A DNA stretch of 64,000 bases. It comes from a virus. The notes under the pieces are model-generated. The model did no database searches. It was not told the DNA's origin and saw nothing but the letters and a program-made list of their open reading frames with translations. A program made the translations under genes and the position numbers. Positions within the stretch are counted from its first letter, which is position 1. Each line of letters begins with the position of its first letter. Location: the IMG/VR virus record IMGVR_UViG_3300045988_154277. One strand, 5' to 3'. Below, piece by piece: positions 37,015 through 59,786 of this stretch.

Positions 37015-38931
37015 TCAATCTAAGATACCGAAGAACGGACCGAACAGACCGATCGGTCGAGCGATGTTCGAAGTCTGAGGATCGTTGAAATAATCCTTGA
37101 GTCGTTCGAATGCAAGCTCCATCGACACAGTTCGGTTGCTGATCACATCTTCCAACTTACCGAACGTCACATGATAGGGATCGGTTACCGTACAGAGTTG
37201 ATAGTTCTGCTGGTTGTCGATCACCAAGTTGTGAAGCACGGTCTCCAGGTGGAAGATCGGGATCGAAGATTTTCGCCAGACGATCTCGCAGAAATCGTTC
37301 AACGCGTGAGGAACACTGTTATAGTTCCCTATCGTAGCGGTCAGGAAGGTCGCTACGCTCTTGGTATACGTGATCATATCATCGTTCATGATGATGAATT
37401 TGAACACGTCCTGCTTCGCATCGAACCCTGCCATCGGTACGATCACACCATCTTCGTCGAACTCCAACTTGTTGTAGTTGGTTCTCATGTGGTCCAGGAA
37501 CGCCTCACTCAGATACGGTACGAACGCATCGTACTCCATCTGGATCGTCTCCACCAGTTCCCCATCTTTCAACAGCTCCAGGTAAGACACCTTACTGAAC
37601 GACTCTGCGATGGGAAGTGTATCCAGGTTCAAGTCAACGATCGGCCCAAGCGCATCACTCGGGATCCGGATCTGATACTTATGGATATGTTTCCCCCACT
37701 TCTGATCGAACAGGATGGAGTTGTTGTTCTTGATGAAATACCTTGCAGCACTTTCCGTCAAGTTGTAGATGAGCGAGTTGGTGTTGATCAGGTGTTTCGC
37801 CGACAACACTTTCTGTGATACAGTGGATGATACCTTCGTAGAGCACAGCAGTCCGATATGGATCCCATGTGGAAGATACTTGATCAACCGATCCTTCCCA
37901 TATCCAGCACAGTGTTCACACATCCCGTCCAGATGGTTGCACCCGAACTGAGAGATCATGTTCACTGTTTGACCAACGTATCGATCGATGACGTTCATGT
38001 TGCTGAGAGCGACCCTTCGTCCATCATCGATGATGATCTTGTTGATGAAGTTCTTGGCATACTCTGGTTTGATCGTCATCGGGATCACGTTGTGATCGGA
38101 TCCACAATTTCCAGGATGAACCGTCTGTACCGTGGAACAACCGAGTCTCATCTTCCTTCCGAAATACTGAGACTTCTTGATCACATCTCGTGAGAAGAAG
38201 ATGGACTTCTTCGCTGAGAGGGATTCGGTTGCGAACTCCACCGGTGATTTCAACCCACTGAAGGATGAGGATGAGATCACGAACTTCCGCATCGTATCAT
38301 CGATGTCCGACCGAGGTCCATATGCCAGCAGCATCTGTGGGATCTGGTTGGTCTTCAGAACACCAGCTTGGATGTAGTGATACAGCACGTTGTTCGGAGT
38401 CTTCGGATCTTTCAAGATCTTCAGAAGTTCCTTCCCATCCTGTCTCAGCTGAGCTTCCGCAACCTGAGTACCCCACTTCGGATCGTAGACCTTATCAGCC
38501 AGTTCCTTGATCGGAGGATACTCCAACAGTTGCGTCAAGCTCAGACCATCGATAGATGGCATGTACTCACCCAACTCCGTTGTGATGAAGTTGTAGATCC
38601 TCGATACATTCCGGAAGATCTTGTGGACCATGAGCATGTGGTCCACGTCTGGACGCTCATCCAAAAACCGATCATAGATGATACTGTAGATCTTACTGCT
38701 ACTATCGCTGGAGATACTCTTGATATTGAACGTCTCCTTGATCGTTGGTAAGATCCCGAAGTACATCAACGGTTCCCAGTACAGGATATTCAGGATCGCC
38801 ATGCGTGTAGGCATCTGAACACTCTTGTTGTCTCCAAGAACCAGTTTACACATCCCACGATCTTGATGTGTCTGACGAAGTTGATCGGCATAACCGGCTT
38901 GGGTATACTGATCTGGTGTTAATACAAGCAT
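37015..38931 (-). CDS. RNAP beta-prime subunit C-terminal fragment (638 aa)
   Basis: NVLYHYIQAGVLKT aligns to bridge-helix NVLQYFISTHGARKG. GCSTVQTVHPGNCG aligns to trigger-loop GEPGTQLTMRTFHIGG. Start overlaps the stop of the beta C-terminal gene (ATGA). Confidence 0.5.
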   Translation of the reverse strand: MLVLTPDQYTQAGYADQLRQTHQDRGMCKLVLGDNKSVQMPTRMAILNILYWEPLMYFGILPTIKETFNIKSISSDSSSKIYSIIYDRFLDERPDVDHMLMVHKIFRNVSRIYNFITTELGEYMPSIDGLSLTQLLEYPPIKELADKVYDPKWGTQVAEAQLRQDGKELLKILKDPKTPNNVLYHYIQAGVLKTNQIPQMLLAYGPRSDIDDTMRKFVISSSSFSGLKSPVEFATESLSAKKSIFFSRDVIKKSQYFGRKMRLGCSTVQTVHPGNCGSDHNVIPMTIKPEYAKNFINKIIIDDGRRVALSNMNVIDRYVGQTVNMISQFGCNHLDGMCEHCAGYGKDRLIKYLPHGIHIGLLCSTKVSSTVSQKVLSAKHLINTNSLIYNLTESAARYFIKNNNSILFDQKWGKHIHKYQIRIPSDALGPIVDLNLDTLPIAESFSKVSYLELLKDGELVETIQMEYDAFVPYLSEAFLDHMRTNYNKLEFDEDGVIVPMAGFDAKQDVFKFIIMNDDMITYTKSVATFLTATIGNYNSVPHALNDFCEIVWRKSSIPIFHLETVLHNLVIDNQQNYQLCTVTDPYHVTFGKLEDVISNRTVSMELAFERLKDYFNDPQTSNIARPIGLFGPFFGILD

Positions 38932-41388
38932 TATACTTCCTCCTCGACTTCTTCGACCTCGAACCCGACGGCTGCCAGCTGGTGTTTGAAGATCCCGATG
39001 TTACTGGCACCATCGATCATCTCTTCTGTAGACATCCCGAGATCGTAGATCCCGCTGGGTTTATCAGCCGTCAGCAACAGATACTGGAGTCGATCGATCG
39101 CTGCAGGAGAGTTGCTGTATGTACACAGTAATCTCACAGCCATCTTCGCACCACAACACATCGTAAGAATAGCGGTCTCATCCTCACCATATCGGATCGG
39201 TGTTTGACCGAACATACTCTGTGCTTTCAGACTCTTGCTGTTGGGTTTGATCGGAGATAGGAACTGACTCTGATATCCGAACTCGATGCAGTTCAACTGG
39301 TCGATCGGGATCTTACCGAGCAGGTGGATATAGAGTTCTCCACAGAGAGCATCCGTACAGGTCTTCACCTGTTTCTTACCACCTTTCCCATCTTTGGCGT
39401 TGTAAGTAACCGGAGTTCTCCGGATCCCATACTTCTTCGCCAATCGATCGATCATCTCAGGACTGATGCTGTCACAGAACGGAGGGATCACCATAAAGAT
39501 CCCGTGTTTCTTGCAGCTGTCCACGAACTCATCTTCATAGTTCTTGGTCTTCTCACGAACATACTGCGCGAACACAGGTCTTACCTCTTGGAGATAATCG
39601 AGGATATACTCATATTGAGCTTCGATCGAACTCCACTGTTGAGTCCAGAGATTCCGCACAACCACATCAGAGACATAGTTGATATATTGTTCGTAATACT
39701 GACCACCATTCAGACGGTTGAACGGAGATGCACCTGTGATCAAGATACTGGCTCTGGTTCCATCCTCCATCGTCGGCATATCTTCATCTTCCCAGATGTC
39801 CGAGATCACACCTTTGTTACCAGCGTTACCAACCAGCTTGTAACCACGGTCGACTTCCCGCTGATAAGCATAAGTGATCTTAACTCGGATGAAGTCAACC
39901 GGTTCCTTCTTATTCATCAGGAACATGGACTTCCCACCTCTCCAGTAACTCCAACCTTTACAGCTGGTTACCAGAGTGTTGAACGCAGGAGTAACCTCAC
40001 GTCCTTCTCGTTTCATCTGCTCATACACATCAACGATAGCCGTCCAATAGGTGTGATACTGATCCTGATACTGCATCAGCTGGGCGTATGCTGTATCAGA
40101 ACTCAGCTCTGGATACTTCTTGTGGTTCGTGAAAATCTCAACATCGATCACAGTTGCACCGGCTTCTGCTCGATAGAGATCATCGTGGAACTCCTCTGCA
40201 CGACGGAGCTTCTCATCGGTCATATCCGTTAAGAACGAACTCTTGTTCTGTTTCCGGAATCCGATCAGGATCCCATCTTCACGGATCTGTTCACCGATTT
40301 CAGGGAACGTCTTATACTCGTTCTCCCCACCGTACAGATTCAGAGGGATGTCGTCGATCTTGACATCGATCGTCACACTGTCGATCACCGTGTGTGAGAG
40401 TTGTTTCTGAAGGCTTCTGCTGATCACGAATGCGTCTTCTGTGGTAGCCCACAGAGGAAGATATGCGACGTTGGCATTCACTCCCATCTTGTACAACCCA
40501 TCTTCGTGATTCGGAGATGTAACGAACTTCGTTGTTTGACTGACCAGACGTCCTTCTTGCAGCTGGTCAAAGTTCATCTGTTTGTTGATGTATCCGAATC
40601 CGCTATACAGTTCGGTATAACTGTCGACTTCGAAATACCCAACTTTACCATCTTCTGCTCCGATGTAGATCACAGTGAGACTGGGGTTGTTCTTGATCTT
40701 CTGAAGACCTGCGTTGACTCGGAACTTCGGGATCACAGCGACGATCTGTACGTCCTGATCTCGAGTACTTTTGTCAAATTCATATTTTCCGATCTTCGTC
40801 TCGTAGCCGGACTGGATCCGTGCTGTCTGACACCCATCCACCACCATCATCTGCGGGGCATTTGAGGAGAGCATTCTTTATGTTCAACCGAGTGCGTTAC
40901 TTCTCGGCCCGCAGCATTACCTGCTCCGCTTATAGATTTGCTATAAGAACAGACTATATCTCACTCCTTACTGAGTAAGGAGAACCTCCATTTCCACCCA
41001 CTTGGGTGTACATTTAGTCGTTGATCTTTCTTCTCAGAGAGAAGCTTAGAAGCTGATTTCCCATTGTTCGTTATCACACGATAACGACATCCCTTAGCAC
41101 CGTGTTGTTACACACAGCTTTTATTTCAGCATAGGACATTCTAATCATTCTTTCTGTCTTTCGACCGCGTTCACGCTTACCCTTGCGAGTTACGTTGTAG
41201 CTGATTAGACTTTAGTGGATCCCAGACCGTTAGAAGGTTGATTTCACCACTACATTACTGTAATAGCGCCCAATGTTGTTTAGGCCACGTTGCGAACTGA
41301 TGAACTGTAAGAAAGGTGAAAGGAGCGCAGGCGTTCCTGTCAATTCCGGTCTTACATTTAGATCTGATACAAATTGCGATGTCTTCAC
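38931..41388 (-). CDS. RNAP beta subunit C-terminal fragment, spliced (exon 1 about 41388..41287, exon 2 40871..38931)
   Basis: GNAGNKGVISDIWEDEDMPTMEDGTRASILITGASPFNRLNGGQYYEQ aligns to beta GRHGNKGVISKI...PSRMNIGQ. QSMFGQTPIRYGEDETAIL aligns to GGQRFGEMEVWAL. The listed ATG at 40874 is the last three nt of the intron. Exon 1 has a GTG start with AGGAGG 7 nt upstream and ends on CGU. Confidence 0.65.
40872..41286 (-). ncRNA. Group I intron B (about 415 nt, no ORF)
   Basis: Contains P7/P8/P7-prime as UCAACGACUAAAUG / CACCCAAGUGGGUG / GAUAUAGUCU. The P4/P5 region GCGGUCGAAAGACAGAAAG is near-identical to the beta-prime intron. P9 hairpins are present. Ends ...AAGAAUG. Confidence 0.65.
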
Positions 41389-41449
41389 ATTGATTCCTCC
41401 TAGTTTGGGTGTTATAGTTTCCAATGTTATGACTCAACATACTCAGATA

Positions 41450-41463
41450 GTAATATATACTCA
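41450..41463 (-). promoter_or_regulatory. Early-type promoter P5 (core TATATATTAC) driving the intron-containing beta-C gene
   Basis: Motif GTAATATATACTC sits about 60 nt upstream of the exon 1 start. The plus-strand gene 41482 also begins 20 nt to its right, so orientation here is ambiguous. Confidence 0.45.
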
Positions 41464-41481
41464 AAAGGGAGATGAAGCCAT

Positions 41482-41835
41482 ATGCCATCTACATTACGTG
41501 AACTCTTCGAAGAGCAAGTGGATCAGTACTGCAGTGAAGATCAGAACTGGGTACAGTTCGTAAGAGATCATTTTCAGTATCTCAGGAACACCGCACAAGA
41601 AGTCACTTTGGATGTCTACCGACACAACACGATGAAGTATCGATTGGAAGACTTCTTGGAGGATCAGCTCAAGATGTACCGATCTACTGCTTGGATCGTG
41701 TTGCTGATCAACCAGATGAACAGTAACGTGGATTTCCGAGAGATGTCATCGATCTTGATCCCTGACATGCGTGTGATCCAGTATCTGAGGAACACATACA
41801 ACACTGTAAAAGCCAATCAAGAAAACATGGTTTGA
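41482..41835 (+). CDS. Hypothetical protein (117 aa)
   Basis: RBS AAGGGAGA upstream. The only plus-strand gene in this region. Confidence 0.5.
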   Translation: MPSTLRELFEEQVDQYCSEDQNWVQFVRDHFQYLRNTAQEVTLDVYRHNTMKYRLEDFLEDQLKMYRSTAWIVLLINQMNSNVDFREMSSILIPDMRVIQYLRNTYNTVKANQENMV

Positions 41836-41839
41836 CCGA

Positions 41840-41874
41840 TAGTGAAGGTAGGGCTAATATCACCCTACCTTCAC
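41840..41874. terminator. Bidirectional terminator hairpin between convergent genes (agtgaaggtaggg...ccctaccttcact)
   Basis: 13-bp stem. Confidence 0.5.
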
Positions 41875-41881
41875 TATATCG

Positions 41882-42340
41882 TTATTGCTTGGAAACTGAC
41901 TTGTAGAGGAAGTTCTGGTACGCTCTGATGAACAGAGGATACGTCCAGAATGTATTATACTTGCGATCGAGATCTCGGATCACATCCCTCGATACATGGA
42001 ACTCTTCCAAGGAACGTAAGCAACGTTCTTTGTACTCAGCCATAACCGATGGTCCGTATTTCACGATACAAGACGCTGTGAATACAGCGATCCGATGTCC
42101 TGTCTTGTAAACAGGACTCTTCGATCCGAATAGATAATCTACACGTTTCACACCAGCTTTAGCGTTCAACGATGATGGATCCAATAGAGCGATGTTCTCA
42201 CAGACGTTATCATTCACCTCTGAAGAACGATCTTGATTCCTTCTATGAAGTTGACACTCCAGATCATAGAAGTATAAGAAATCATTGTAGATCTGATCAT
42301 CCAACTGTGGAGTCAGATGGGATGCTTTTGAAAAGAACAT
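41882..42340 (-). CDS. Hypothetical protein (about 152 aa, start MFFSKASH)
   Basis: RBS AGGAG 7 nt before the internal ATG at 42340. Confidence 0.45.
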   Translation of the reverse strand: MFFSKASHLTPQLDDQIYNDFLYFYDLECQLHRRNQDRSSEVNDNVCENIALLDPSSLNAKAGVKRVDYLFGSKSPVYKTGHRIAVFTASCIVKYGPSVMAEYKERCLRSLEEFHVSRDVIRDLDRKYNTFWTYPLFIRAYQNFLYKSVSKQ

Positions 42341-42383
42341 ATAGTATCTCCTGTTGTATAGGAAGATTGCATGTGATATCTTT

Positions 42384-43589
42384 CTACCCGATCGAAGAGA
42401 TCTTGCAGGGGACCCTTCCGATCGATGGGATCTCGAGCATATAAACATCATCGATCTCACCGATGTTCCAATTACCAGTGGACGCTGTAATAAGGGATGA
42501 TCCAGTAACCAATGTATCACTTCCTATCGTAGTTACTGTACGTGTCGTTTGATTACGGAGTACTGTAGTAGCATTGACGATGTCCGTTTGTAATGTGGTC
42601 ACAGTACGCAGACCTTGGTTGTTGATCATCGCCATCGGAGTATTCGTGATGATGTTCTTCAGCACAGAGAGGGCAAATCCACCCGCTACAGCAGTACCAA
42701 CATCTCCTACATAATTGAACGTAGCGTTCCCAAATCCTTTGTGATGGAACACATCCATCATCGTAGTTCCCACAGGTCCCTTGAACGACGCAACCGTGTT
42801 ACCATTTACATTGGTCACCAGGTTCCCACCTACGAAGAACTCTAAGTTCTTGGGAACATGGATCGCCATGTTCTTATCTTCCAGAGTGATCGATGTGCCA
42901 GCTGCATTTTCCAGCTTGATCCTTCCTCTGCAACCAGGTATCGGCTGAGACTCCAGCTTGATCGAGTTCGATGGGATCGATTTGTCTTTGACAGGTTGGT
43001 CCCAGATCTCAACGCTGCGTGAGTTCGTATCGATCTTGAAGAAATACCTCCAGTCTTCACCATCAGAAGCAGAAGTAGATAACAAGATGTGTTTATGATA
43101 CTTCGTATCGATCTCTAAGAAATAACTGTTGTCATCCGTGATACCAGCTTGTTTGCCTTCTACATCATCTCCGACAGCTCGACTCTTGTTGGTAATCGCT
43201 TGATCCAGAGCTGAGAACCGGATCTGTTCGAAGGTTCGCATGTAATCATCTCGTTCCAACGGTAACCAGAAGAACCGATCATCCGTTGCGAAGTTCAACA
43301 CGAGAACCTGTTGGTTCTTGTACATCGTCGGTACAGTACGGGATGTGAGTACACCAAGATACTCTGCAGTGATCGTCGTAGCGGTCTGTACGTTGACGGA
43401 CTCTTTCTGGTTTGTCATTACATTGGTCACTTCAACCGTATGAGTTGATGTTTCAGGGGTGATATCACCAGTCAACGTTGGGAGATATTCGGGTACGTAT
43501 ATGTGGAAGGTTCTCTGATTCCTGTAACCAGTTGATTCAGCCAGGTAACCGATGAACACTCTCCATCGATCAGACATAGGTGCTGCCAT
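42384..43589 (-). CDS. Hypothetical protein, structural-like (about 402 aa, start MAAPMSDRW)
   Basis: RBS AGGAGG 9 nt before the ATG at 43589. Confidence 0.5.
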   Translation of the reverse strand: MAAPMSDRWRVFIGYLAESTGYRNQRTFHIYVPEYLPTLTGDITPETSTHTVEVTNVMTNQKESVNVQTATTITAEYLGVLTSRTVPTMYKNQQVLVLNFATDDRFFWLPLERDDYMRTFEQIRFSALDQAITNKSRAVGDDVEGKQAGITDDNSYFLEIDTKYHKHILLSTSASDGEDWRYFFKIDTNSRSVEIWDQPVKDKSIPSNSIKLESQPIPGCRGRIKLENAAGTSITLEDKNMAIHVPKNLEFFVGGNLVTNVNGNTVASFKGPVGTTMMDVFHHKGFGNATFNYVGDVGTAVAGGFALSVLKNIITNTPMAMINNQGLRTVTTLQTDIVNATTVLRNQTTRTVTTIGSDTLVTGSSLITASTGNWNIGEIDDVYMLEIPSIGRVPCKISSIG

Positions 43590-43647
43590 GAGTATAATCC
43601 TCCTAATATTTAGGTCGTATAGGATCACTTCCGTAACAAAAGAAGAA

Positions 43648-43680
43648 CTATAGAGAGGGGTACCACCACCCTCTCTATAG
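43648..43680 (-). terminator. Terminator hairpin followed by UUCUUCUUUUGUU
   Basis: 12-bp stem ctatagagaggg/ccctctctatag. Confidence 0.65.
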
Positions 43681-43681
43681 T

Positions 43682-44050
43682 TCAATATACCAGATGTACG
43701 TTAGGATAGTCCTGCGATAACTTCTGTAACACAGGACTGATGATCTCATCGTAGATATGATAACGGTTCGCTAGTCCACTTCCTAACTTCGAGATCAGAT
43801 AGATCCTGTCAGGATGTGACTGGATCTCATCCAGAAGTCTAGCTAACTCTTGATCGAATACAGGACGATACTCGTCTGGACGGTAATACGAACGCTCAGA
43901 TAGACTGGGTCGTCGCTTCGTTACGAACCCATACGTCTGAGGATGCCACCGTAATGCAGCTGCACCACCTCTTCCCTGATGAAGCAGATTATCTCCATAT
44001 ACGAAGATCACGTTCGGATGATCGTCCAAGTACCGTTCTGTTACGATCAA
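43682..44050 (-). CDS. Hypothetical protein (122 aa; motif VIFVYGDNLLHQGRGGAA)
   Basis: ORF only; I could not assign a family confidently. Confidence 0.45.
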   Translation of the reverse strand: MIVTERYLDDHPNVIFVYGDNLLHQGRGGAAALRWHPQTYGFVTKRRPSLSERSYYRPDEYRPVFDQELARLLDEIQSHPDRIYLISKLGSGLANRYHIYDEIISPVLQKLSQDYPNVHLVY

Positions 44051-44505: not shown

Positions 44506-44672
44506 GGACAGAGTAATCGAGTATAATGTTGATTCCCTTGCGTAATTGCAAGGTAGTGTTCTTTACAGTGTGGGCAATACACTCTCCCACAACCATCACA
44601 AGCGTACTTGGGATCGTTGGGTTCTAGCTTCTTACCACACTGAGAACAGGTGACTTGATAGTTCGTATGCAT
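44451..44672 (-). CDS. Cys-rich zinc-ribbon-like small protein (about 73 aa)
   Basis: CSQCG...CDGCG...CPHC...CPWC. RBS AAGGAG upstream. Confidence 0.5.
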   Translation of the reverse strand: MHTNYQVTCSQCGKKLEPNDPKYACDGCGRVYCPHCKEHYLAITQGNQHYTRLLCPWCLDNGHHRVINRTINN

Positions 44673-52191: not shown

Positions 52192-52193
52192 AA

Positions 52194-52226
52194 GAAGAGT
52201 AGAGAGGGTGGATCTCTCTACTCTTC
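52194..52226 (-). terminator. Terminator hairpin followed by UUCUUCUUUUGUU
   Basis: 12-bp stem gaagagtagaga/tctctactcttc. Confidence 0.6.
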
Positions 52227-52261
52227 CATGTAAGATCTTCTACGTTGATAGAGTTATCTGA

Positions 52262-52951
52262 TTAGATATCTCTCATACGTCTTACGACGTCATACAGTTG
52301 GTTGTTGTATTCAGCTAACCTTCTGGTGTAGGTTCTCATCTGTTCAGGGAGGTTAGGAACCTCCCTCTGGATCAGACGGATCGTCGTCTCCATGTTGAGA
52401 TGGGTATCGCTTAATTCAGCAGTCAATGACTTGTACTTATCGATCGTAGACTGCATCTCTGCATAAGCCTTCTTGGAAGACTCGATACCACTCTCCGTGA
52501 CTGCTTTCTGGTTCATCAGATAGAGTAGATATCCACGATAATCTTCGATCGTACAGTCTATACATCCTGCACAAGTCAGCTGACAGGATACCACTACAGG
52601 TGTATGACCTTGATGCTTATATACTTTGGTCTGTACATGGATATCGTAGACGTTCTCGATATCCACGATCGACATCAGGTGTACAGTCACCAGGAAGTCA
52701 TTCTCCACTTTGGATTTATAGAGCATCCCTTCGTGACGGACATACCCATCACTGAATACTTGTTGAGTCGTATGAGTTAACACCTCCAGGTAACTCCCAT
52801 CGTTCTTGGGATAGCCTTCTGGGAAGACTACACGTTTGTGGTCCTCATCCCACTTTAATAGATCGATCTTGTCTTCTGGGAAGACATACGTAGTATCCAT
52901 CAGGTGTTGAACTTTGTTCAACATCGATGTGATCAGTTCGTTCTGTTCCAT
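52262..52951 (-). CDS. Hypothetical protein (229 aa)
   Basis: ORF; RBS GAAGGAG. Confidence 0.5.
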   Translation of the reverse strand: MEQNELITSMLNKVQHLMDTTYVFPEDKIDLLKWDEDHKRVVFPEGYPKNDGSYLEVLTHTTQQVFSDGYVRHEGMLYKSKVENDFLVTVHLMSIVDIENVYDIHVQTKVYKHQGHTPVVVSCQLTCAGCIDCTIEDYRGYLLYLMNQKAVTESGIESSKKAYAEMQSTIDKYKSLTAELSDTHLNMETTIRLIQREVPNLPEQMRTYTRRLAEYNNQLYDVVRRMRDI

Positions 52952-52969
52952 ATTAGATTAATACTCCTT

Positions 52970-53404
52970 CTATTTATGAGTTGGTTGTAACTTGGAGAAC
53001 TCGATCTGTCCTCCGTAGAATGCGTTGTACTTCGGTAAGTGATAGGCTTTCGCTGCACGCTTACCATGTAACTCCCACCAACATCCCCGGATCCACATCT
53101 TCGTAGAACAAGTTGTGGTGAATGTTACATAGGACCAGTGGTTGCTGATCCTTAGTAATTTCTCCTTGAACATATCTACATAGTAGATGCTGAGGTTGTC
53201 CGTATTACAGCTGACGTATTTTAGGATCCATCTTCTCTTATGATAGAAGATGGAGGATGGGAGTCGTTCTTTGATTATGTCGGCATTTACGCTTGTCATA
53301 TCAAGATGTTTTAGTCTGTAGAGGACGTTGGATATAACCTCGTACTCTACTGACCAGAAGTGCCCTAACGACTGATAGGAATAGTTGTTCTCTGTGTACT
53401 TCAC
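52970..53404 (-). CDS. Hypothetical protein (144 aa)
   Basis: ORF. Confidence 0.45.
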   Translation of the reverse strand: MKYTENNYSYQSLGHFWSVEYEVISNVLYRLKHLDMTSVNADIIKERLPSSIFYHKRRWILKYVSCNTDNLSIYYVDMFKEKLLRISNHWSYVTFTTTCSTKMWIRGCWWELHGKRAAKAYHLPKYNAFYGGQIEFSKLQPTHK

Positions 53405-53581
53405 ATGTCACACACTCCTCATCTGACACCTGCATGTTTGATCGACATGCAGGTAGTATAGGTCACCTCTTCAGAGACCCGTTCGAACTTCTTAGTTTGG
53501 GGATACCGTATGTACAGTAACCCATTCCACTTGATGATGACAAGACCATCGTTGCCTTTGTGTAATATTCTGTTGGTCATG

Positions 53582-54157
53582 TTAAACTCTCCCTGGTATA
53601 AATGTGAGGTTCACTCTGAGCATCGGTATGTTGTGGTTGTGATACATCTCAAGAGTTTCTTGTTTTTGATTATCATAGAGTACAGTACACCGGACATTCT
53701 TGAGTGGAGTGTATTGTATCAGTTGTTTGGTGAACTCCTCCGTATCAAGATCCACGTAGAATCTGATGTTTTCCTTATCGGTTGGGAATATATCAGGACT
53801 GAACTCACGATTCAATACAGCTCGGAATGACTCTTCCGAAATGAATTGTATATCCGGTAGTACCGGGCTGGACCATAGTGAGATTTTGCGATCCCACATG
53901 GTACTCCACACAATGTTTTTACTCACTACGTAGTAGTGGAGATCGGGTCGCTGTATGCATTCGGATATGAGCATCGAGAGCAATGTCTCTGTCTTACCGG
54001 ATTGCCGACATCCGCATATTGCAGTGAACACCGGTTCCGGATGCCAAACACGAGTACGAACTTTATCAAAGAACACATCCAACTCATGGTCGTACATGTG
54101 TTCGAAGGTTCGACGAATGGTTTCGAGCTTCTCAGCTCTGTTTGGTTTAGATTGCAT
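53582..54157 (-). CDS. P-loop NTPase (about 191 aa, start MQSKPN)
   Basis: Walker A GCRQSGKT. RBS AAGGAGG before the ATG at 54157. Confidence 0.5.
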   Translation of the reverse strand: MQSKPNRAEKLETIRRTFEHMYDHELDVFFDKVRTRVWHPEPVFTAICGCRQSGKTETLLSMLISECIQRPDLHYYVVSKNIVWSTMWDRKISLWSSPVLPDIQFISEESFRAVLNREFSPDIFPTDKENIRFYVDLDTEEFTKQLIQYTPLKNVRCTVLYDNQKQETLEMYHNHNIPMLRVNLTFIPGRV

Positions 54158-54280
54158 TAGAATCCTCCTTGGGTTGATGGGTATAACTTGTTTGTCCTTG
54201 TGATATATTAAGAGTGACATCATACAACAACGACGATCTACATTGACCAGATCAGACATCAGGGTAGAATTGGGAGAACG

Positions 54281-54421
54281 TTAGTTAGTTACAACACTCT
54301 TCTTAGAGAAGAGTTGTCGTCTTAATTCTCGCAGATATGCTTCTTTTGCTCTGACACGAGTCATGACCTCGTCCATATGCTGAGAAGCACTCTTACTTGA
54401 ATTAGCGTAAGAGAACGCCAT
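54281..54421 (-). CDS. Small protein (46 aa, MAFSYANSSKSASQHMDEV...), member of a tandem small-gene family
   Basis: Below the ORF-track cut-off; found by manual translation. RBS GGAGGTGATCGAT. Paralogous to the next three small genes. Confidence 0.5.
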   Translation of the reverse strand: MAFSYANSSKSASQHMDEVMTRVRAKEAYLRELRRQLFSKKSVVTN

Positions 54422-54581
54422 ATCGATCACCTCCAGTCTAACCGTTCAGGTACGAATGAACGGATAAGTTCGGTTAGATCAGATCTGTATGTTGTTGTAT
54501 GAGTCACTTAAATTCAAAGAGTGATAGGAAATGTTACGGCAGTTGTTGACCAGACAAGACATCAACAACCGAGTTCACTGG

Positions 54582-54728
54582 TTATTTCTGTGGATGCTTG
54601 ACGATCCATCTTCTCCAATCTAAGTTAGACTGGTTAGGATGTCTTTGCATTACAGATTGCATGTGTTCTGAAGCTGTCGGTGGGACTAATACTTCAGGAT
54701 GTTTAGCATCGATGTATGCAAATGCCAT
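54582..54728 (-). CDS. Small protein (48 aa, MAFAYIDAKHPEVLVPPTASEHMQSV...)
   Basis: Manual translation. RBS GAAGGAGGTGAGCTCT. Confidence 0.5.
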   Translation of the reverse strand: MAFAYIDAKHPEVLVPPTASEHMQSVMQRHPNQSNLDWRRWIVKHPQK

Positions 54729-54894
54729 AGAGCTCACCTCCTTCTACCACAAACAGGGAACTGTCTTTGTGGTGTGACAGGTTGGAGCATGTCTGTAATA
54801 CACCTCCTATCACTTAAATTCAAAAGAGTGATGGGTTGTAGATGTGCGAAAATCACCAACCAGATCAGTCATCGGTGATTTGTGTCACGTACGA

Positions 54895-55068
54895 TCATTG
54901 AGCGATAGCAACACTCGATGCTTTTGACGTGAGTTTTGCATCAATAACACGTGTTTGCTTAAGAGCATTGCGCTCCCAGCGTTGACGATCACGTGCTTCT
55001 TGTTCAGCAACACACTTGTATCCGGCATTCGGATCTAAGATGCGTTTGAAGAACTCATCTGAGGTCAT
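54895..55068 (-). CDS. Small protein (57 aa, MTSDEFFKRILDPNAGYKCVAEQ...)
   Basis: Manual translation. RBS TAGGAGGTGATGTCAT. Confidence 0.45.
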   Translation of the reverse strand: MTSDEFFKRILDPNAGYKCVAEQEARDRQRWERNALKQTRVIDAKLTSKASSVAIAQ

Positions 55069-55547
55069 ATGACATCACCTCCTAACTACTGTAGATTAAA
55101 CAGTCTTGCAGTAGGACTGGTTATAAGAGTCAGTAACAGAACCTCTCTCCTTCAGGTGAGGGATGTATGTTACTACGAACTATTCTTCCGTTGGACGTTA
55201 GTCCATCGTGATGTAATAGAAGGACAGTATGCTAAGAACATATGGTTAAAATGTTCTTGTTGCCTGGAACAGGCCATCGACGTAAGTCGGTGTACTCGGT
55301 AACACGAGGAAGCTCCTTCCTTCAGGTAGGAGTAGTTCACGTTCAGATCTGTAGTCACCTACCATCCATCACTCGTCTTATCGAAAAAGAGACAGCTAAG
55401 GGATGAAGGATACAACTCCTTCATCCCTTAGCTAATCGTGTATTCGAAGTATAACTCTACACACGTTGGATATAGTAAGAACAACACTTCACAGTTGTCG
55501 AAACAACATCGACCAGATCAGTCATCGATGTTGAATTGTACTCACAT

Positions 55548-55745
55548 CTAAGTGGTTAACATTGCCACGATAGATGGCGTTTTAGTTGGTTTGTTGCTGT
55601 GATATATTCCGTAGTGTTTACGGAGCATATCCATCAACATCTTCTGCTTAGCTTTGGCACGTGCTACACGAGCATCATGCATTTCAGAAGCAGATTTAGG
55701 AGATAGCACGGTTGGGTGCTTCTCATCCATCATCGCAAACGGCAT
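55548..55745 (-). CDS. Small protein (65 aa, MPFAMMDEKHPTVLSPKSASEMHDARV...)
   Basis: RBS TAGGAGGTGATTTGT. Shares MxFA...KHPxVL...ASExH with the 54582 gene. Confidence 0.5.
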   Translation of the reverse strand: MPFAMMDEKHPTVLSPKSASEMHDARVARAKAKQKMLMDMLRKHYGIYHSNKPTKTPSIVAMLTT

Positions 55746-55846
55746 ACAAATCACCTCCTAACTACCGACTCAAGCACAAGTGAGTCGATCAGCTTGGTTG
55801 GATCAGATCTGTAAAACTATGAAGTGTTGTTCAATACAAACAAGTT

Positions 55847-55886
55847 AGCTAGGGATAGTGGAGTGTTCGCCTCCACTATCCCTAGC
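55847..55886 (-). terminator. Terminator hairpin (17-bp stem agctagggatagtggag)
   Basis: Follows the lysozyme stop at 55893. Confidence 0.55.
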
Positions 55887-55892
55887 TGGTTA

Positions 55893-56426
55893 TTAGTTGA
55901 CTTTGTTCCAGAGGTTGGACTCAGCCTGTCTACGTTTAACAAGCCCCGGTGCGATATCGTAAACGATCTTACCGTTCTTATCCTTTACGATTTTGCCCTT
56001 CGAGACTCTCTTCACTTTGTTCCATCTCTGGATCTCAGAGGGAACCGAACCATACTGGCGCTGGTTCAGTTTCTTAAGGAGAGTGGATGAAGCGAAGTTC
56101 GATCTCCCCACGTTGTAAGTGAATACGATGAGAGCAGCCTTCTGGTTGTCCGTCAGAGGGACCTTGACCTGTGTATCGATATATCCACCGATACTGGTTA
56201 CGTATCCGTCCAGAATACGATTTGCTTCTTCTTTAGTCATGTGACCACGAGCAACGAGGTTCTTATCATTAAACCCCCAACCGATGGCTTTCTTGTTGAC
56301 ATCAGTGTAGGGGGCTGAACGGAAGGTTTCGAACTGCTTGATCAGTTCGGTTGCCGAAGTCTTCCAATCTTGTGCGAAGACGTTGATGGTGAGGATGATG
56401 GTGATAAGAGTGATGATGTGTTTCAT
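55893..56426 (-). CDS. GH24 (T4-lysozyme family) muramidase with N-terminal signal peptide (177 aa)
   Basis: Signal peptide [45 protein letters not shown] aligns to [44 protein letters not shown] aligns to [29 protein letters not shown] at the C-terminus. Confidence 0.7.
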   Translation of the reverse strand: [177 protein letters not shown]

Positions 56427-56485
56427 GTTGTTGATTCCTTTTGTTTAGGGTTGTTGGGTTGATACAGCTAGATGTATTCAATAAG

Positions 56486-56504
56486 TAATATATATGCGAA
56501 ATCT
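56486..56504 (-). promoter_or_regulatory. Early-type promoter P7 (core TATATATTAC) with upstream CAGTGTAGTTCA element
   Basis: CAGTGTAGTTCA sits 12 nt upstream of the core, the same spacing as in P2 and P4. Confidence 0.55.
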
Positions 56505-56527
56505 TTTGAACTACACTGCATACGGTG

Positions 56528-56562
56528 TATCTAGGTATGGGATAACTACCCATACCTAGATA
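56528..56562 (-). terminator. Terminator hairpin (tatctaggtatggg...cccatacctagata)
   Basis: 14-bp stem after stop 56575. Confidence 0.6.
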
Positions 56563-56574
56563 CGTTGAAATGTA

Positions 56575-57567
56575 TTATGCGTTGGCGGGAGCAGGAAGTT
56601 CTTTCGTATTGGAGAACTTACGATTGAATGCTTCAAGACGGTTCTTGATGTAGAAGATACCATTAGCTGCTTGTTTCGCACATTCTTCGATAGCATACAT
56701 CACAGTTGCGGCTTGTCTGATTGTATTCTGAGCAACCTTAAGTTGATCTACATCACCCTTCTTCTCAGCACGTGCTTTGAGTTTCTCAGGGATCGTACGG
56801 AGACTGTTCACCAGGTTCTCACCCTTCTTGCACATTTCGTGGAGAGATTTGGACATCTCAGGCGCTTCATTGATAAACTTCTCATCGACTGGCTTTTTAG
56901 GATACTCACGTCCACCAGTCATAACAATACCGAGTTCGCCAGCCAGATCATTGCCGTGCTGACGGATCTGATTAGATTCTTCGTCGTTCATAGAACGGAT
57001 CACATCAACATTGGCTTTGGCACAGATCGACCGATCGAAATCAGAGATGATCTTCTGGATGTTGGAGTTGGTGAACGATTCGGCAACCATCGTTGGATTA
57101 CTGTCTGTAATGATGGTATCTGCTCTGAATGGTTGCTTCTTTGACTGTCGTTTCTTTGAATGATTGTTTTTGGCTTCCTTAGCCTCCTCTTGGACAGCTT
57201 GGTTGGCTTTGTCCGTAGACTTGAACAAGTTCGTAAAGAACTTCTTGATCTTCGTCCACAGATCTTGGAACCATTTCACAACAGCATCCCAACCTTTCGA
57301 GATGGTCTCACCGAGACCTTCCATCGTGAGCGATATGTTGTTCTGTCCGTAAAGGTACTGAATTGTTTCAGTACTTCCAGACTGTTGGATCACATCACGG
57401 ATTTGGATCAGCTGATCCATCGTGGTGATACGATCCATCAAGCAGTTGTATGCTTCCCAAGTGACGTCATAAGCCGACTCCATCGCGATATAAGCATCCA
57501 GGAGTTCTTCGTTGCTTGCGACACTGGATGTCTGCGGGATGCTCAGGTGTTCTAATCCGAGGTTCAT
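56575..57567 (-). CDS. Alpha-helical hypothetical protein (330 aa), paralog of 49467..50441
   Basis: N-terminal similarity (MNLGLEHL...MDQLIQIRDVIQQSGSTE versus MQLGIESL...VDNLIQIGQYLKQYGATE). Confidence 0.5.
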   Translation of the reverse strand: MNLGLEHLSIPQTSSVASNEELLDAYIAMESAYDVTWEAYNCLMDRITTMDQLIQIRDVIQQSGSTETIQYLYGQNNISLTMEGLGETISKGWDAVVKWFQDLWTKIKKFFTNLFKSTDKANQAVQEEAKEAKNNHSKKRQSKKQPFRADTIITDSNPTMVAESFTNSNIQKIISDFDRSICAKANVDVIRSMNDEESNQIRQHGNDLAGELGIVMTGGREYPKKPVDEKFINEAPEMSKSLHEMCKKGENLVNSLRTIPEKLKARAEKKGDVDQLKVAQNTIRQAATVMYAIEECAKQAANGIFYIKNRLEAFNRKFSNTKELPAPANA

Positions 57568-57601
57568 GATGTTGTTTCCTTTTGATGATACATTGTAATT
57601 A

Positions 57602-57611
57602 CCCCCCCCCC
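57602..57611. repeat. C10 homopolymer tract (G10 on the minus strand) in a divergent intergenic region
   Basis: accccccccccgcag. Confidence 0.8.
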
Positions 57612-57686
57612 GCAGAGGGAGAGAAGGGTAAGTGATAATACGAGTAAAAGCCCTCTGTATACCATTGTTTCTTGAGGGTATCCCAG

Positions 57687-57696
57687 CATGGTATGC
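57687..57696 (+). promoter_or_regulatory. Candidate second-class promoter element CATGGTATGC, 33 nt upstream of the beta-prime ATG
   Basis: See 27661..27670. Confidence 0.35.
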
Positions 57697-57729
57697 ACTC
57701 TGATATACACTACACTGAAGGAGGTATTT

Positions 57730-59786
57730 ATGGCTTTAGATCCAGTACGCATCTGGCTGATGGATGTGCCTAAATTCATACGAGAGAATAAATGTCAACC
57801 TGTAACATCCGTCTTCATCCGTGAGACCACAACGAATGAATTTAAACACGATGGGTTGTTCTCAGAAGACATCTTCGGTCAGATCAATACTCCGGAGCGG
57901 TTGATCCGGTTCGGATATGTCGATCTTCGGACGAAGATCCTACATCCGCTCATCTACATCGATATCGTGAAGCTGAAGGCTTTCTATGGAGAGATCATGG
58001 CTCGGAAAGCTTATGCCGTGTTCAATCCAGAGACCAAAGAGTTCATTCGTGCATCGGAAGAAGACGAAGATGCTGATACAGGGTATCAGTTTTTCATGAG
58101 TCATTTGGATGATTTGAAGTTCGAGAAGAACAAGTCCTTGAAACACAACGAGATGGTTGATGTGATCGAGCGACACCAAGGCAAGTTGACATTGGAACAA
58201 TGCCTTGTGATGCCAGCTGGATTACGAGACCTTAGAGAAGACGAAGGTAAACCAGCTGCAGATAGTATCAACAAACTCTACTCTTCTCTGATCAACTACA
58301 CACTGGCTCTTCCCACTACCAAGACTACGTCTGATATTTATGACAATGTCAGGTTCTCGATCCAGAAGAAAGTCTCTGAGATCTATCAGTATCTATTCGA
58401 TATGATCGAAGGGAAGTTCGGGTTCTTCCAGAGGAAGTACGGTTCTCGTAACCTTGCATTGGGTACTCGTAATGTGGTATCCACAGCATCCATGGCTGCG
58501 TTATCACCAGATGATCCTCAGTATCTGAAAATGGATGAGATCAAGATCCCACTCTTCCAGTTATGCAAGATGTTCACTCCGTTGATCATCTACAACATCC
58601 GGATGCTATTCCTGAACGAAGTGTTCCATATCACATCGGACCAGGTTGCTTTGATCGATCCAGAAACCAATAACTTGGTCTACCAGCCGATCGATGAGGA
58701 TGAGAAGAGTCGGTTCCTCTCATCGGAAGGGATCGAGAAGATGATCGATCTTTTCAGGGATCCTGAGTTCCGGTTCACTCCTGTTGTGGTATACAACGAA
58801 GAGGGCAAAGGATATTACCTCTACATGGTCTACGATGATACGGAAGTGATCTACTTGACGAGAAGCGTCAGTGAAGTGATCAACAAGATCAAGGATAAAG
58901 TAGGTGTCTACGATCCTCAGAAACTGAGACCTCTCACTTATGCTGAGATGTTCTACATCGCAGCGTATCGTGCTACTTACGACAAGACTTCATTGATCAC
59001 ACGATATCCTGCCATCGAAGTAGGATCTGAAGTACCGAATCGTGTACATCTGATCTCAACGAACCCTGCAAGGAAGATCAATCTGTTCTCTACGATGGAT
59101 GATGATAACTGGATCATGCTTCCAGAGTATCCGATCATCAACAATACCTTTGTGGATAGTCTGATCCCGCATCCACAGATCTTAGGAGGGTTAGGGATGG
59201 ATTCGCTAAACAGTCGAAGTCCCGCTATCGGGTAACCGGTGGTGACAAGAAAGTGAATTGCTGGAAACATCTAAGAGCTAGTTTGGCTACAGCGTGATCC
59301 GAAAGGATGAATGCGATATGCGGTCGAAAGACAGAAAAAACAAACTAGATGACCTATGGTGAAATAAAAGCTTGTATGTACCACACCAACATACAGGTCC
59401 TAAAGGTTGATGCTTCTATATGAAGCGGAACAATGTGCAATCAGCAGCTAAGCTTATAGATAACTCTCTGAGTCGCTATGAGAAAGTTCATCGACTAGGT
59501 GCTCCCACCCGAGCGATTGGGTGGATGGTATAGTCAGGCCGCTAATGAAGATTAGTGGGTAAACGTATGTAAGTTATTGATATTCAATGAGTTACAACGG
59601 AAGATGTTTGATGGCGACACAGCCTCGTCCAATGGTGTATTGAGCAAACAAGCCAACCAAGAAGTCAATGAGTATTTGGATTCAATAGGACGTTACATCC
59701 ACAGTAACGGAAAATTGATGCACGGTACCACTGACTTGATCAAATTGACGATCTTCAACTTATCGAGAGATCCTGTTCTCGTTTAA
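57730..59786 (+). CDS. RNAP beta-prime subunit N-terminal fragment, interrupted by a group I intron (exon 1 57730..59202, exon 2 59607..59786; about 550 aa spliced)
   Basis: RBS AGGAGG 7 nt before the ATG at 57730. FKHDGLFSEDIFGQ aligns to PERDGLFCARIFGP. LVMPAGLRDLREDEGKPAADSINKLYSSLINYTLAL aligns to [39 protein letters not shown]. Joining ...GLGMD (exon 1, ends in U) to FDGDTASS... (exon 2) recreates the catalytic NADFDGD motif. Exon 2 continues HSNGKLMHGTTDLIKLTIFNLSRD, matching [25 protein letters not shown]. Confidence 0.7.
59203..59606 (+). ncRNA. Group I intron in the beta-prime gene (about 404 nt, no ORF)
   Basis: P7/P8/P7-prime present as UCGACUAGG / CCCACCCGAGCGAUUGGGUGG / GGUAUAGUCAGG, matching the phage group I R/S consensus. 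GAAA-capped helices AUCCGAAAGGAU and GGUCGAAAGAC. P9 is CGCUAAU-GAAG-AUUAGUG. The 5-prime exon ends in U and the intron ends in G (AAGAUG). Confidence 0.75.

What the first reader, a model, noticed from the sequence alone, without database searches (positions are those of the whole stretch)
37015..59786. Split multisubunit RNAP genes indicate a phiKZ-like jumbo phage
Separate ORFs encode the beta N-terminus (17450..19347), the beta C-terminus (38931..41388; GNKGVISD..., QSMFGQTPIRYGEDE), the beta-prime C-terminus (37015..38931; bridge-helix NVLYHYIQAG) and the beta-prime N-terminus (57730..59786). Separate N- and C-terminal beta and beta-prime genes are the hallmark of phiKZ-like virion and non-virion RNAPs. 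beta-C and beta-prime-C overlap by ATGA and sit under an early-type promoter. beta-prime-N sits under the other promoter class. This hints that fragments of two different polymerases are interleaved.
Basis: partly seen in the sequence, partly recalled or inferred. Interest (0 to 1): 0.55.

Follow-up and report, generated by a model that had tools for sequence, protein, structure and literature searches.

The report
Jumbo-phage RNA polymerase genes with introns

Summary
All four ORFs are fragments of multisubunit RNA polymerase (RNAP). Three match solved chains of the phiKZ non-virion RNAP: beta-N matches gp123, beta-C matches gp71-73 and beta'-C matches gp74. The beta'-N fragment is the virion-RNAP type (phiKZ gp180 / PhiPA3 gp212).

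Three of the "ORFs" are not continuous. Each is interrupted by an ORF-less group I intron of about 400 nt: 17913..17490(-), 41281..40876(-) and 59203..59606(+). The three introns are paralogues. They sit at LALP|PSAP in beta-N, RGL|MLSS in beta-C and GMD|FDGD in beta'-N.

Natural intron-less alleles in public metagenomes encode the predicted spliced proteins. These are 515 aa (100% identical), 683 aa and 550 aa (both about 99% identical, with the predicted junction sequence).

The beta-N gene ends at 17376, not 17450. The beta-C/beta'-C overlap is TAATG, not ATGA.

An early-type motif (TATATTAC; 7 sites, about 1 expected) precedes the non-virion genes. A TATG-containing motif precedes beta'-N.

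Verdict: correct but ordinary, a new member of a known kind. Side observations concern intron polymorphism, a 9-nt-shifted intron and an odd intein at the DFDGD site in relatives.

The parts
17914..19347 (-). Non-virion RNAP beta-N (phiKZ gp123-like), exon 1. GTG start at 19347; the exon ends ...LALP (CCU).
   Evidence: phrog_2943 at 1.4e-42. PDB 7ogp_E PHIKZ123 at 2.8e-11. Erwinia phage RAY annotates its homologue as nvRNAP beta subunit 1.
17490..17913 (-). Group I intron 1 (424 nt, no ORF with any family hit). It is inserted between Pro478 and Pro479 (phase 0).
   Evidence: No Rfam hit. It is 73% identical to intron 2 over 223 nt (E 1e-23) and scores 331 bits by nhmmer (E 1.6e-100), although intron 1 is itself one of the three sequences the profile was built from. 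By inspection, the 5' splice-site U pairs with G in P1 (CCU/GGG), P10 is CCAU/AUGG, and the intron ends in G. Intron-less allele P0166 (515 aa) is 100% identical to the predicted spliced product.
17376..17489 (-). beta-N exon 2 (PSAPVVSGEINPMIQVDMETGFFIIPSWYKEISHVFD, then stop).
   Evidence: Same frame and sequence as the relative L006 and as intron-less homologues, with no gap across the junction.
20572..20579 (-). Early-type promoter motif TATATTAC, upstream of a 383-aa gene followed by beta-N.
   Evidence: 7 sites, all on the minus strand, against 1.07 expected. The extended consensus is tttcacgtaTATATTACtta. Gene calls come from L139.
22470..23126 (-). Small virion-RNAP beta/beta'-like domain (homologue of the 224-aa phiKZ-type protein KTN4_185). 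Here it is the C-terminal 218 aa of the 1717-aa ORF 22470..27623.
   Evidence: phrog_3233 at 1.8e-64 over the whole profile. tblastn hits PhiPA3 gp172 and KTN4_185, annotated 'beta/beta'-like virion-associated protein'. The N-terminal part carries DUF5662, SNF2 and GNAT domains.
35351..36856 (-). Helicase downstream of beta'-C, in the position of phiKZ gp75.
   Evidence: phrog_16 DNA helicase at 9e-22. phiKZ gene order gp71-73, gp74, gp75.
37015..38931 (-). Non-virion RNAP beta'-C (phiKZ gp74-like), uninterrupted, 638 aa.
   Evidence: phrog_3015 at 2.7e-87. PDB 7ogp_D PHIKZ074 at 7.8e-25 and AR9 7s00_D at 3.6e-15.
38931..40875 (-). Non-virion RNAP beta-C (phiKZ gp71-73-like), exon 2. Its TAA stop overlaps the beta'-C ATG by 1 nt.
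   Evidence: Pfam RNA_pol_Rpb2_6 at 1.2e-18. phrog_3295 at 1e-123. 7ogp_C at 5.3e-56. Junction sequence.
40876..41281 (-). Group I intron 2 (406 nt, ORF-less). It lies inside codon Leu36 (CU|A, phase 2).
   Evidence: Rfam RF00028 at 36.5 bits, below the gathering score of 50; E 1.5e-7 locally and 1.1e-5 over the whole window. By inspection, P1 is GCCU|AA / UUGGGC, P10 is AAUG/CAUU, and the intron ends in G. Variant genomes L131, L132, L134 and L136 carry an uninterrupted 683-aa gene with the predicted junction RGLMLSS, while L133 and L135 carry the intron.
41282..41388 (-). beta-C exon 1 (GTG start at 41388 behind AGGAGG; 35 codons plus 2 nt).
   Evidence: The gene callers use the same start in the intron-less loci.
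41450..41457 (-). Early-type promoter motif TATATTAC, 62 nt upstream of the beta-C start.
   Evidence: AT-rich conserved early-promoter motifs are known for RNAP-encoding jumbo phages (PMC7598289).
57686..57696 (+). Second motif class, GCATGGTATGC (contains TATG), 34 nt upstream of the beta'-N ATG.
   Evidence: 4 exact sites against 0.17 expected. The others lie 37-38 nt upstream of the gene at 10830(+) and of the SNF2/small-virion-subunit fusion at 27623(-). The pattern was derived post hoc from three of these sites. phiKZ late promoters have only a TATG core (PMC7598289).
57730..59202 (+). Virion RNAP beta'-N (phiKZ gp180 / PhiPA3 gp212-like), exon 1. It ends ...GGLGMD (GAU).
   Evidence: phrog_2986 positions 4-484. 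tblastn at 1e-69 to 2e-81 to virion-associated RNAP subunits. No match to solved non-virion chains. The predicted fold of the 91%-identical P0048 matches AR9 and bacterial beta' chains.
59203..59606 (+). Group I intron 3 (404 nt, ORF-less). It lies between Asp491 and Phe492, inside the catalytic DFDGD motif (phase 0).
   Evidence: Rfam RF00028 at 38.9 bits, below the gathering score of 50; E 2e-8 locally and 2.1e-6 over the whole window. By inspection, P1 is GGAU|UCG / CGA(A)GUCC, P10 is UUUGA/UCGAA, and the intron ends in G. Intron-less allele P0046 (550 aa, 99% identical) and the 52% relative L004 read GLG(M/A)D(F/H)DGDTAS without interruption.
59607..59786 (+). beta'-N exon 2 (FDGDTASSNG...SRDPVLV, then stop).
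   Evidence: phrog_2986 positions 485-538.

Best explanation
The window is part of an uncultivated phiKZ-like giant phage of about 278 kb that, like phiKZ, makes two multisubunit RNA polymerases from split beta and beta' genes.

The window holds three of the four beta/beta' fragments of the non-virion enzyme: beta-N (gp123-like), beta-C (gp71-73-like) and beta'-C (gp74-like). It also holds the beta'-N fragment of the virion enzyme (gp180-like), and a small virion-RNAP domain fused to the end of a 1717-aa SNF2/GNAT protein.

Three of the genes (beta-N, beta-C and virion beta'-N) are each interrupted by a paralogous group I intron of about 400 nt with no homing-endonuclease gene.

Shown:
- the identities of the fragments;
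- the intron homology;
- that removing exactly these segments gives proteins that exist as uninterrupted alleles in related genomes.

Inferred:
- After transcription each intron folds and binds guanosine, which attacks after the U of the U-G pair in P1. The freed exon 1 then attacks after the terminal G, joining the exons and restoring the reading frame.
- The non-virion genes are early genes, read by the injected virion polymerase from TATATTAC-type promoters.
- The virion beta'-N is a late gene, read by the non-virion enzyme from a TATG-type start.
- The introns come and go in the phage population by recombination between co-infecting genomes, possibly helped by an endonuclease acting in trans or by reverse splicing.
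For: Fragment identity; synteny with phiKZ.

Intron evidence:
- Rfam group I hits for two introns, covering the full length of the model.
- All three align at 67% mean column identity, and only these three copies occur in the window.
- RNAalifold on six family members finds 27 of 59 predicted pairs with compensatory changes.
- In orthologous introns, 25 of 30 substitutions at paired positions keep the pair.
- The same nhmmer profile also hits the endonuclease-bearing introns of phiKZ (after gp56 and gp72) and PhiPA3 (after gp210 and in gene 065).

Junction evidence:
- An intron-less beta-C of 683 aa occurs in four independent assemblies.
- Intron-less beta'-N P0046 is 550 aa.
- Intron-less beta-N P0166 is 515 aa and 100% identical to the prediction.
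- Distant intron-less homologues align across each junction without gaps.

Promoter motifs: read against PMC7598289.

Precedent: introns in jumbo-phage RNAP genes are described in PMC10914365, PMC11620839 and bioRxiv 10.1101/2020.12.14.422802.
Against: - Both Rfam hits are below the family's gathering score (38.9 and 36.5 against 50), and intron 1 has no Rfam hit at all.
- No RNA data show splicing. The phiKZ introns predicted in 2002 were not seen to splice in one long-read transcriptome (PMC10914365).
- My P1/P10 pairings and the IA-like reading are by hand. P3 of intron 3 could not be drawn convincingly.
- The non-virion beta'-N (gp55-like), the gp68-like subunit and the other virion subunits lie outside the window, so the claim of two complete polymerases rests on family knowledge.
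- The late-type motif was defined post hoc.
Confidence: 0.88

Rival explanations
1. All four fragments belong to one split polymerase (beta-N + beta-C + beta'-N + beta'-C). The phage has a single enzyme rather than separate virion and non-virion sets.
For: The window happens to contain exactly one copy of each of the four fragment types. The rest of the genome was not examined.
Against: beta'-N matches only the virion-type gene in phiKZ-like genomes, with one place per record (gp180/gp212-like, annotated virion-associated). It has no match to the solved non-virion beta'-N chains, whereas the other three fragments match non-virion chains. A further virion-type small subunit domain is present. 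The two groups of genes sit behind different motif classes.
Confidence: 0.04
2. The interruptions are not introns. They are assembly or sequencing errors, pseudogene decay, or further splitting of the genes into extra mini-subunits (peptides of 36, 37 and 59 aa) that assemble without RNA splicing.
For: No transcript data exist. The Rfam scores are below the gathering score. Jumbo-phage RNAP genes are known to be split at the protein level (PMC7598289).
Against: The same inserts occur in independent assemblies (L001, L005, L133, L135, L137, L138). They are homologous to one another and to known phage group I introns. Each is bounded by a U-G pair in P1 and a terminal G. They interrupt codons or invariant motifs, and their precise removal reproduces natural uninterrupted alleles. 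Exon 2 of beta-C has no start codon at the junction, and the join is made inside a codon.
Confidence: 0.03
3. The introns are retained because they do something for the phage. They might occupy and so protect the most conserved RNAP sites from homing endonucleases or inteins of competing phages, or they might gate polymerase production through conditional splicing. On this view they are not merely selfish passengers.
For: Intron-plus, intron-less and intein-bearing alleles coexist at the DFDGD site within one phage lineage that is 90-99% identical. The intron-less beta-N allele differs by 13 nt in 1548, and 5 of these are synonymous changes within 7 nt of the insertion site. This resembles the silent-mutation escape from the PhiPA3 intron endonuclease gp210 (PMC11620839).
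Against: No endonuclease gene was found in or beside the introns. The same patterns are expected from ordinary gain, loss and co-conversion of selfish introns. For beta'-N, the exon differences are spread over the whole gene.
Confidence: 0.12

Closest known systems
phiKZ non-virion RNA polymerase (gp123, gp71-73, gp74, with gp55 and gp68; PDB 7OGP/7OGR)
   Same: The same three fragment types, split at the same places, with full-length sequence matches. The same gene order beta-C, beta'-C, helicase. The genes lie behind an AT-rich early-type motif.
   Different: Identity is only about 20-29%. gp55- and gp68-like genes are not in the window. The intron in beta-C is at residue 36 and has no ORF, whereas phiKZ and PhiPA3 carry one near residue 389 with the endonuclease gp72.
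phiKZ virion RNA polymerase subunit gp180 / PhiPA3 gp212
   Same: beta'-N aligns end to end (residues 2-548) at 30-33% identity and carries DFDGD.
   Different: In phiKZ and PhiPA3 the gene is followed by gp178/gp211; here the neighbours differ. Here the gene contains a group I intron in the DFDGD motif.
Endonuclease-bearing group I introns of phiKZ (gp56, gp72, gp179) and PhiPA3 (gp210) in RNAP genes
   Same: They are group I introns inside jumbo-phage RNAP genes at conserved residues. Their 3' halves match a profile built from the window's introns (E 2e-6 to 4e-15). See PMC10914365 and PMC11620839.
   Different: The window's introns are about 400 nt with no endonuclease ORF, and they lie at other sites and, for beta'-N, in another gene.
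Introns in RNAP subunit genes of AR9 and the Staphylococcus MarsHill-like jumbo phages
   Same: Multiple RNAP subunit genes are disrupted, and intron content varies between close relatives.
   Different: They belong to a different phage clade, and the sequences were not compared here.
ORF-less group I introns of T4-like and SPO1-like phages
   Same: Small self-splicing introns placed in conserved motifs of essential enzymes and polymorphic among relatives. This comparison rests on my own knowledge and the review text.
   Different: The host genes there are for DNA metabolism (td, nrdB, DNA polymerase) rather than RNA polymerase.

Membership tests
phiKZ-type split multisubunit RNAP, non-virion set | Sequence homology of each fragment to gp123 (beta-N), gp71-73 (beta-C) and gp74 (beta'-C) | tested here: met
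   7ogp_E at 2.8e-11, 7ogp_C at 5.3e-56, 7ogp_D at 7.8e-25. PHROG hits.
phiKZ-type split multisubunit RNAP, non-virion set | Presence of the beta'-N fragment (gp55-like) and the fifth subunit (gp68-like) | not testable with these tools
   Neither was found among the 20 ORFs of 321 aa or more (beyond the four RNAP fragments) that were scanned against PHROGs. The rest of the 278-kb genome is not available as sequence.
phiKZ-type split multisubunit RNAP, virion set | beta'-N with the DxDGD metal-binding motif, homologous to gp180 rather than gp55 | tested here: met
   The spliced product reads GMDFDGDT. The only tblastn place per phiKZ-like genome is the gp180/gp212 gene. No hit to the solved non-virion chains.
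phiKZ-type split multisubunit RNAP, virion set | The protein is packaged in virions | not testable with these tools
   This needs virion proteomics.
Group I intron (Rfam RF00028) | Match to the covariance model at the curated gathering score | tested here: not met
   38.9 and 36.5 bits against 50 for introns 3 and 2 (E 2e-8 and 1.5e-7 locally, full model length). Nothing for intron 1.
Group I intron (Rfam RF00028) | 5' splice site after a U that pairs with G in P1, terminal G at the 3' end, and P10 pairing with exon 2 | tested here: met
   By inspection. Intron 1: CCU| with GGG, CCAU/AUGG. Intron 2: GCCU|AA with UUGGGC, AAUG/CAUU. Intron 3: GGAU|UCG with CGA(A)GUCC, UUUGA/UCGAA. All three end in G.
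Group I intron (Rfam RF00028) | Conserved folded core supported by covariation | tested here: inconclusive
   27 of 59 RNAalifold pairs show compensatory changes. P2 and P7 show compensatory variants by eye. Orthologue substitutions mostly keep the pairs. No full P1-P9 model was built, and P3 of intron 3 is unresolved.
Group I intron (Rfam RF00028) | Precise excision restores the host reading frame | tested here: met
   Natural intron-less alleles equal the predicted ligated exons.
Group I intron (Rfam RF00028) | Self-splicing activity | not testable with these tools
   This needs in vitro splicing or RNA-seq.
Mobile intron with homing endonuclease (phiKZ gp72 / PhiPA3 gp210 type) | An endonuclease ORF inside the intron | tested here: not met
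   The only ORF of 60 aa or more inside an intron (17561-17797, 78 aa) has no Pfam or PHROG hit. The introns are 404-424 nt. No HNH, GIY-YIG or LAGLIDADG hit was found in the neighbouring ORFs.

The most novel reading that the evidence does not exclude
One family of endonuclease-free group I introns has retargeted itself to several conserved motifs of both phage RNA polymerases by changing its internal guide sequence. The evidence is three paralogues in three genes, plus a sister copy 9 nt away in an 83% relative. On this reading the family spreads by reverse splicing or by exon-homology recombination during co-infection. Together with an intein that competes for the same DFDGD site, it takes part in a contest between related giant phages over possession of, or immunity at, the polymerase active-site sequences.
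Probability: 0.15. Interest if true: 0.65.

Novelty: new member of a known kind. Interest (0 to 1): 0.4.

Why it matters
For annotation, gene callers truncate all three genes. Public calls are 638-647 aa for the 683-aa protein, 501-517 for the 550-aa protein and 496 for the 515-aa protein. Each call loses a conserved stretch, in beta'-N the catalytic DFDGD motif, so polymerase subunits in this common metagenomic phage group are mis-annotated.

For biology, the population data give a natural series of empty, intron-occupied and intein-occupied alleles at conserved RNAP sites. Such a series is the raw material for testing whether introns and inteins mediate competition between co-infecting giant phages, as was shown for one PhiPA3 intron endonuclease.

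The basic finding, split RNAP genes marking a phiKZ-like phage, is well-established knowledge.

Tried and rejected
- Rfam at gathering thresholds found nothing in the window. The introns appeared only with E-value thresholds on short stretches. Intron 1 was never found by Rfam.
- Pfam recognised only beta-C. Splicing the exons did not extend the Pfam match.
- Megablast of 36000-42000 against phage genomes found nothing.
The mapping of introns 1 and 2 to the bacterial motifs PIETPEG and NRALMGANMQRQ therefore rests on spacing and on my reading only.
- For intron 1 I considered 5' splice sites after CUCU and after CAU, and 3' sites after AUG (17507) and after the first G of UUAGG. I rejected them because only CCU|...GG|CCA gives P10 pairing, matches the length of homologues, and equals the intron-less allele.
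- For intron 3 I rejected the end of the Rfam match (59557) as the 3' splice site, because the frame then runs into a stop.
- Pfam did not recognise the intein-like insert. Its Hint fold showed only in the structure search.
- tRNA search found none.
- The mir-5881 hits at 15495-15549 on both strands are a palindrome, not a microRNA.

Full report
**Observation.**
The other three "ORFs" are shorter than claimed: 38931..40874(-), 17857..19347(-) and 57688..59235(+), plus a separate 59577..59786(+). PHROGs assigns all of them to phage RNAP families. It also shows that 57688-59235 covers profile positions 4-484 of phrog_2986, while 59577-59786 covers positions 485-538 of the same profile. That result gave the first sign of an interrupted gene. 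Pfam recognises only beta-C (RNA_pol_Rpb2_6, 1.2e-18).

**The interruptions are group I introns.**
- Rfam at gathering thresholds finds nothing.
- With E-value thresholds, RF00028 matches 59198-59557(+) at 38.9 bits (E 2e-8). It matches 40929-41292(-) at 36.5 bits (E 1.5e-7). Both matches cover the full length of the model and both are below the gathering score of 50. They remain the top hits in a whole-window scan.
- The third gap has no Rfam hit. It nevertheless aligns with the other two at 67% mean column identity. BLASTN gives 73% identity over 223 nt to intron 2 (E 1e-23).
- A profile of the three finds no further copy in the window.

**Splice junctions.**
I placed the junctions from the reading frames, from the rule of a U-G pair in P1 and a terminal G, and from P10 pairing, using the sequences.
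- Intron 1 is 17913..17490 (424 nt).
- Intron 2 is 41281..40876 (406 nt).
- Intron 3 is 59203..59606 (404 nt).

The spliced genes encode 515 aa (beta-N), 683 aa (beta-C) and 550 aa (beta'-N).

**Tests of the junctions.**
- For beta-C, variant genomes of the same phage group carry an uninterrupted 683-aa gene reading ...ISSQRGLMLSSNAPQ... (L131, L132, L134, L136). Others carry the intron (L133, L135).
- For beta'-N, cluster P0046 (133 member sequences) is 550 aa, 99% identical, and reads ...GGLGMDFDGDTASS.... A 52% relative, L004, is also uninterrupted.
- For beta-N, P0166 (a cluster of 99 members, on a 282-kb contig) is 515 aa and 100% identical to the prediction. Three distant intron-less homologues align across the junction without a gap.

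The beta-C stop and the beta'-C start share one base (TAATG), not ATGA.

**Structure of the introns.**
- RNAalifold on six family members predicts 59 pairs, and 27 of them show compensatory changes.
- In orthologous introns from other assemblies, 25 of 30 substitutions at paired positions keep the pair. Several are double changes.
- By eye, P2 varies in a compensatory way: CUAUUAC/GUAGUGG, CUAUCGG/CCGGUGG and CUAUAGUG/CACUGUGG.
- P7 is GACUA/UAGUC in the window and GAGUA/UACUC in relative L006.
- Hairpins between P7 and the 3' strand of P3 in introns 1 and 2 suggest subgroup IA. This is not a rigorous assignment, and I could not draw P3 of intron 3.
- No intron contains an ORF with a family hit.

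**Which polymerase.**
- beta-C matches phiKZ gp71-73 (7ogp_C, 5.3e-56, residues 23-677).
- beta'-C matches gp74 (7.8e-25).
- beta-N matches gp123 (2.8e-11).
- All three are chains of the solved non-virion enzyme.
- Erwinia phage RAY annotates the best-matching genes as nvRNAP beta subunits 1 and 2.
- beta'-N has no PDB match. It hits one place per phiKZ-like genome: PhiPA3 gp212, which is noted there as similar to phiKZ gp180, and proteins annotated as virion-associated.
- The predicted fold of the 91%-identical homologue P0048 matches AR9 and bacterial beta' chains.
- Synteny with phiKZ gp71/73, gp74, gp75 is kept.

A fifth RNAP-related piece went unnoticed. The last 218 aa of the 1717-aa ORF 22470..27623(-) match the small virion beta/beta'-like protein (phrog_3233, 1.8e-64; KTN4_185).

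**Promoters.**
- TATATTAC occurs 7 times, always on the minus strand, against 1.07 expected. Its extended consensus is tttcacgtaTATATTACtta.
- One copy lies 62 nt before the beta-C start. Another lies before a 383-aa gene that is followed 29 nt later by beta-N.
- This fits the conserved AT-rich early-promoter motifs described for RNAP-encoding jumbo phages (PMC7598289).
- GCATNNTATGC occurs 4 times against 0.17 expected. Three copies lie 34-38 nt before the start codons of beta'-N, of the SNF2/small-subunit fusion and of the gene at 10830.
- It contains the TATG core of phiKZ late promoters. Because I derived the pattern from these sites, its significance is overstated.

**Comparison with what is known.**
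- Split RNAP genes are the hallmark of this phage group (PMC7598289).
- Introns in their RNAP genes are already described. Examples are phiKZ gp56, gp72 and gp179 (PMC10914365), PhiPA3 gp210 (PMC11620839), and AR9 and the MarsHill-like phages.
- The window's intron profile also hits the 3' parts of the phiKZ and PhiPA3 introns.
- What differs here is that the introns lack an endonuclease, occupy different sites, and are polymorphic in the metagenomic population.

The finding is thus a correct identification of an ordinary feature, with an overlooked and moderately interesting layer. I rate novelty as a new member of a known kind and interest at 0.4.

**Source.**
Exact-sequence look-ups place the window on ENA contig ERZ28568400 scaffold_10 (278,450 bp). 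Its proteins belong to clusters with 78-150 members from many metagenomes. No phage record in the GenBank collection is similar at the DNA level.

Noticed in passing
L002/L003 about 4528-5115; proteins P0048, P0050, P0058, P0068, P0071, P0074, P0080, P0115, P0122-P0124: Relatives (44-91% identical) carry an in-frame insert of 196 aa or about 350-410 aa at the very DFDGD site occupied by intron 3. The predicted structure of P0048 matches a solved intein (9hth_B, E 9.5e-9, TM 0.66), although Pfam sees nothing. All 11 insert-bearing sequences read D(F/H)DGN|C...YD|T, and all 9 insert-free ones read D(F/H)DGDT. Compared with a canonical intein, the extein Asp and the terminal intein Asn appear swapped, and canonical splicing would leave DFDGN without the third metal-binding Asp. 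This is unexplained.
   Followed up: partly
L006/L007 4444-4751 against window 17490-17913: In a relative with 83% aa identity, the beta-N gene has a shorter (308 nt) intron of the same sub-lineage (shared CGCGAAAGCAGAAAGAAT). It is inserted 9 nt further downstream (LSLPPSS|PVV against LALP|PSAPVV). Its own matching P1 (GUCU/GGAC) and P10 (CCAGU/ACUGG) support the position. This points to independent insertion or short-range relocation within one motif.
   Followed up: partly
window 17905-17914 and 17487-17489 against L139/L140 (intron-less beta-N): The intron-less allele encodes an identical protein but differs at 13 of 1548 nt. Five of these are synonymous changes within 7 nt of the insertion site (GCT CTA CCT|CCA against GCA TTG CCA|CCT). 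They remove the splice-site U and one P10 pair. Smaller synonymous differences flank the beta-C site. The cause could be co-conversion, selection for guide pairing, or site immunity.
   Followed up: partly
window 22470-27623 (-): This is a 1717-aa ORF with DUF5662, an SNF2 helicase, a GNAT acetyltransferase and a Ser/Glu-rich linker, followed by the small virion-RNAP domain. That domain is a free-standing protein of about 222 aa in phiKZ-like phages. Among the 30 closest representatives (49% identity or more) all but one carry it at the C-terminus of a 396-2435-aa protein. This suggests that cargo enzymes are packaged with the virion polymerase.
   Followed up: partly
L135 1-944, L136 168-1349: Some variant genomes carry a 393-aa TnpB-like gene (OrfB_IS605, Cas12f1-like_TNB) immediately upstream of beta-C, where the window has the 117-aa ORF 41482-41835.
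   Followed up: no
viral contigs L010-L124; L059 and L069 from contig IMGVR_UViG_3300045988_142450: The intron core motif CTATGSTGAAATAAAAGC occurs in more than 115 viral contigs, often several times per locus. The 98% relative has at least two more family members outside the region covered by the window. Distant beta'-N homologues (L012, L037, L076, L093, L094, L117) have such an intron directly after, or overlapping the end of, their beta'-N match (which ends at our residue 427-450), a different site.
   Followed up: partly
IMGVR_UViG_3300045988_163688 (L002/L003, L006/L007): This 361,040-bp contig contains each locus twice in mirror-image positions, and the coordinates of each pair sum to 361,041. 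It is therefore a palindromic assembly artefact of a sequence of about 180 kb.
   Followed up: no
window 15440-15550, 29810-29860, 56445-56495: Three TATATTAC sites share about 25 nt of upstream sequence (cagtgtagttca...tttcacgta), and two of them also share about 20 nt downstream. A palindrome at 15495-15549 gives spurious mir-5881 hits on both strands.
   Followed up: no
window 57602-57611: A run of ten C lies in the divergent intergenic region between the phiKZ_IP-like internal head protein gene (56575-57567, -) and beta'-N. It is next to an inverted repeat AGAGGG...CCCTCT.
   Followed up: no
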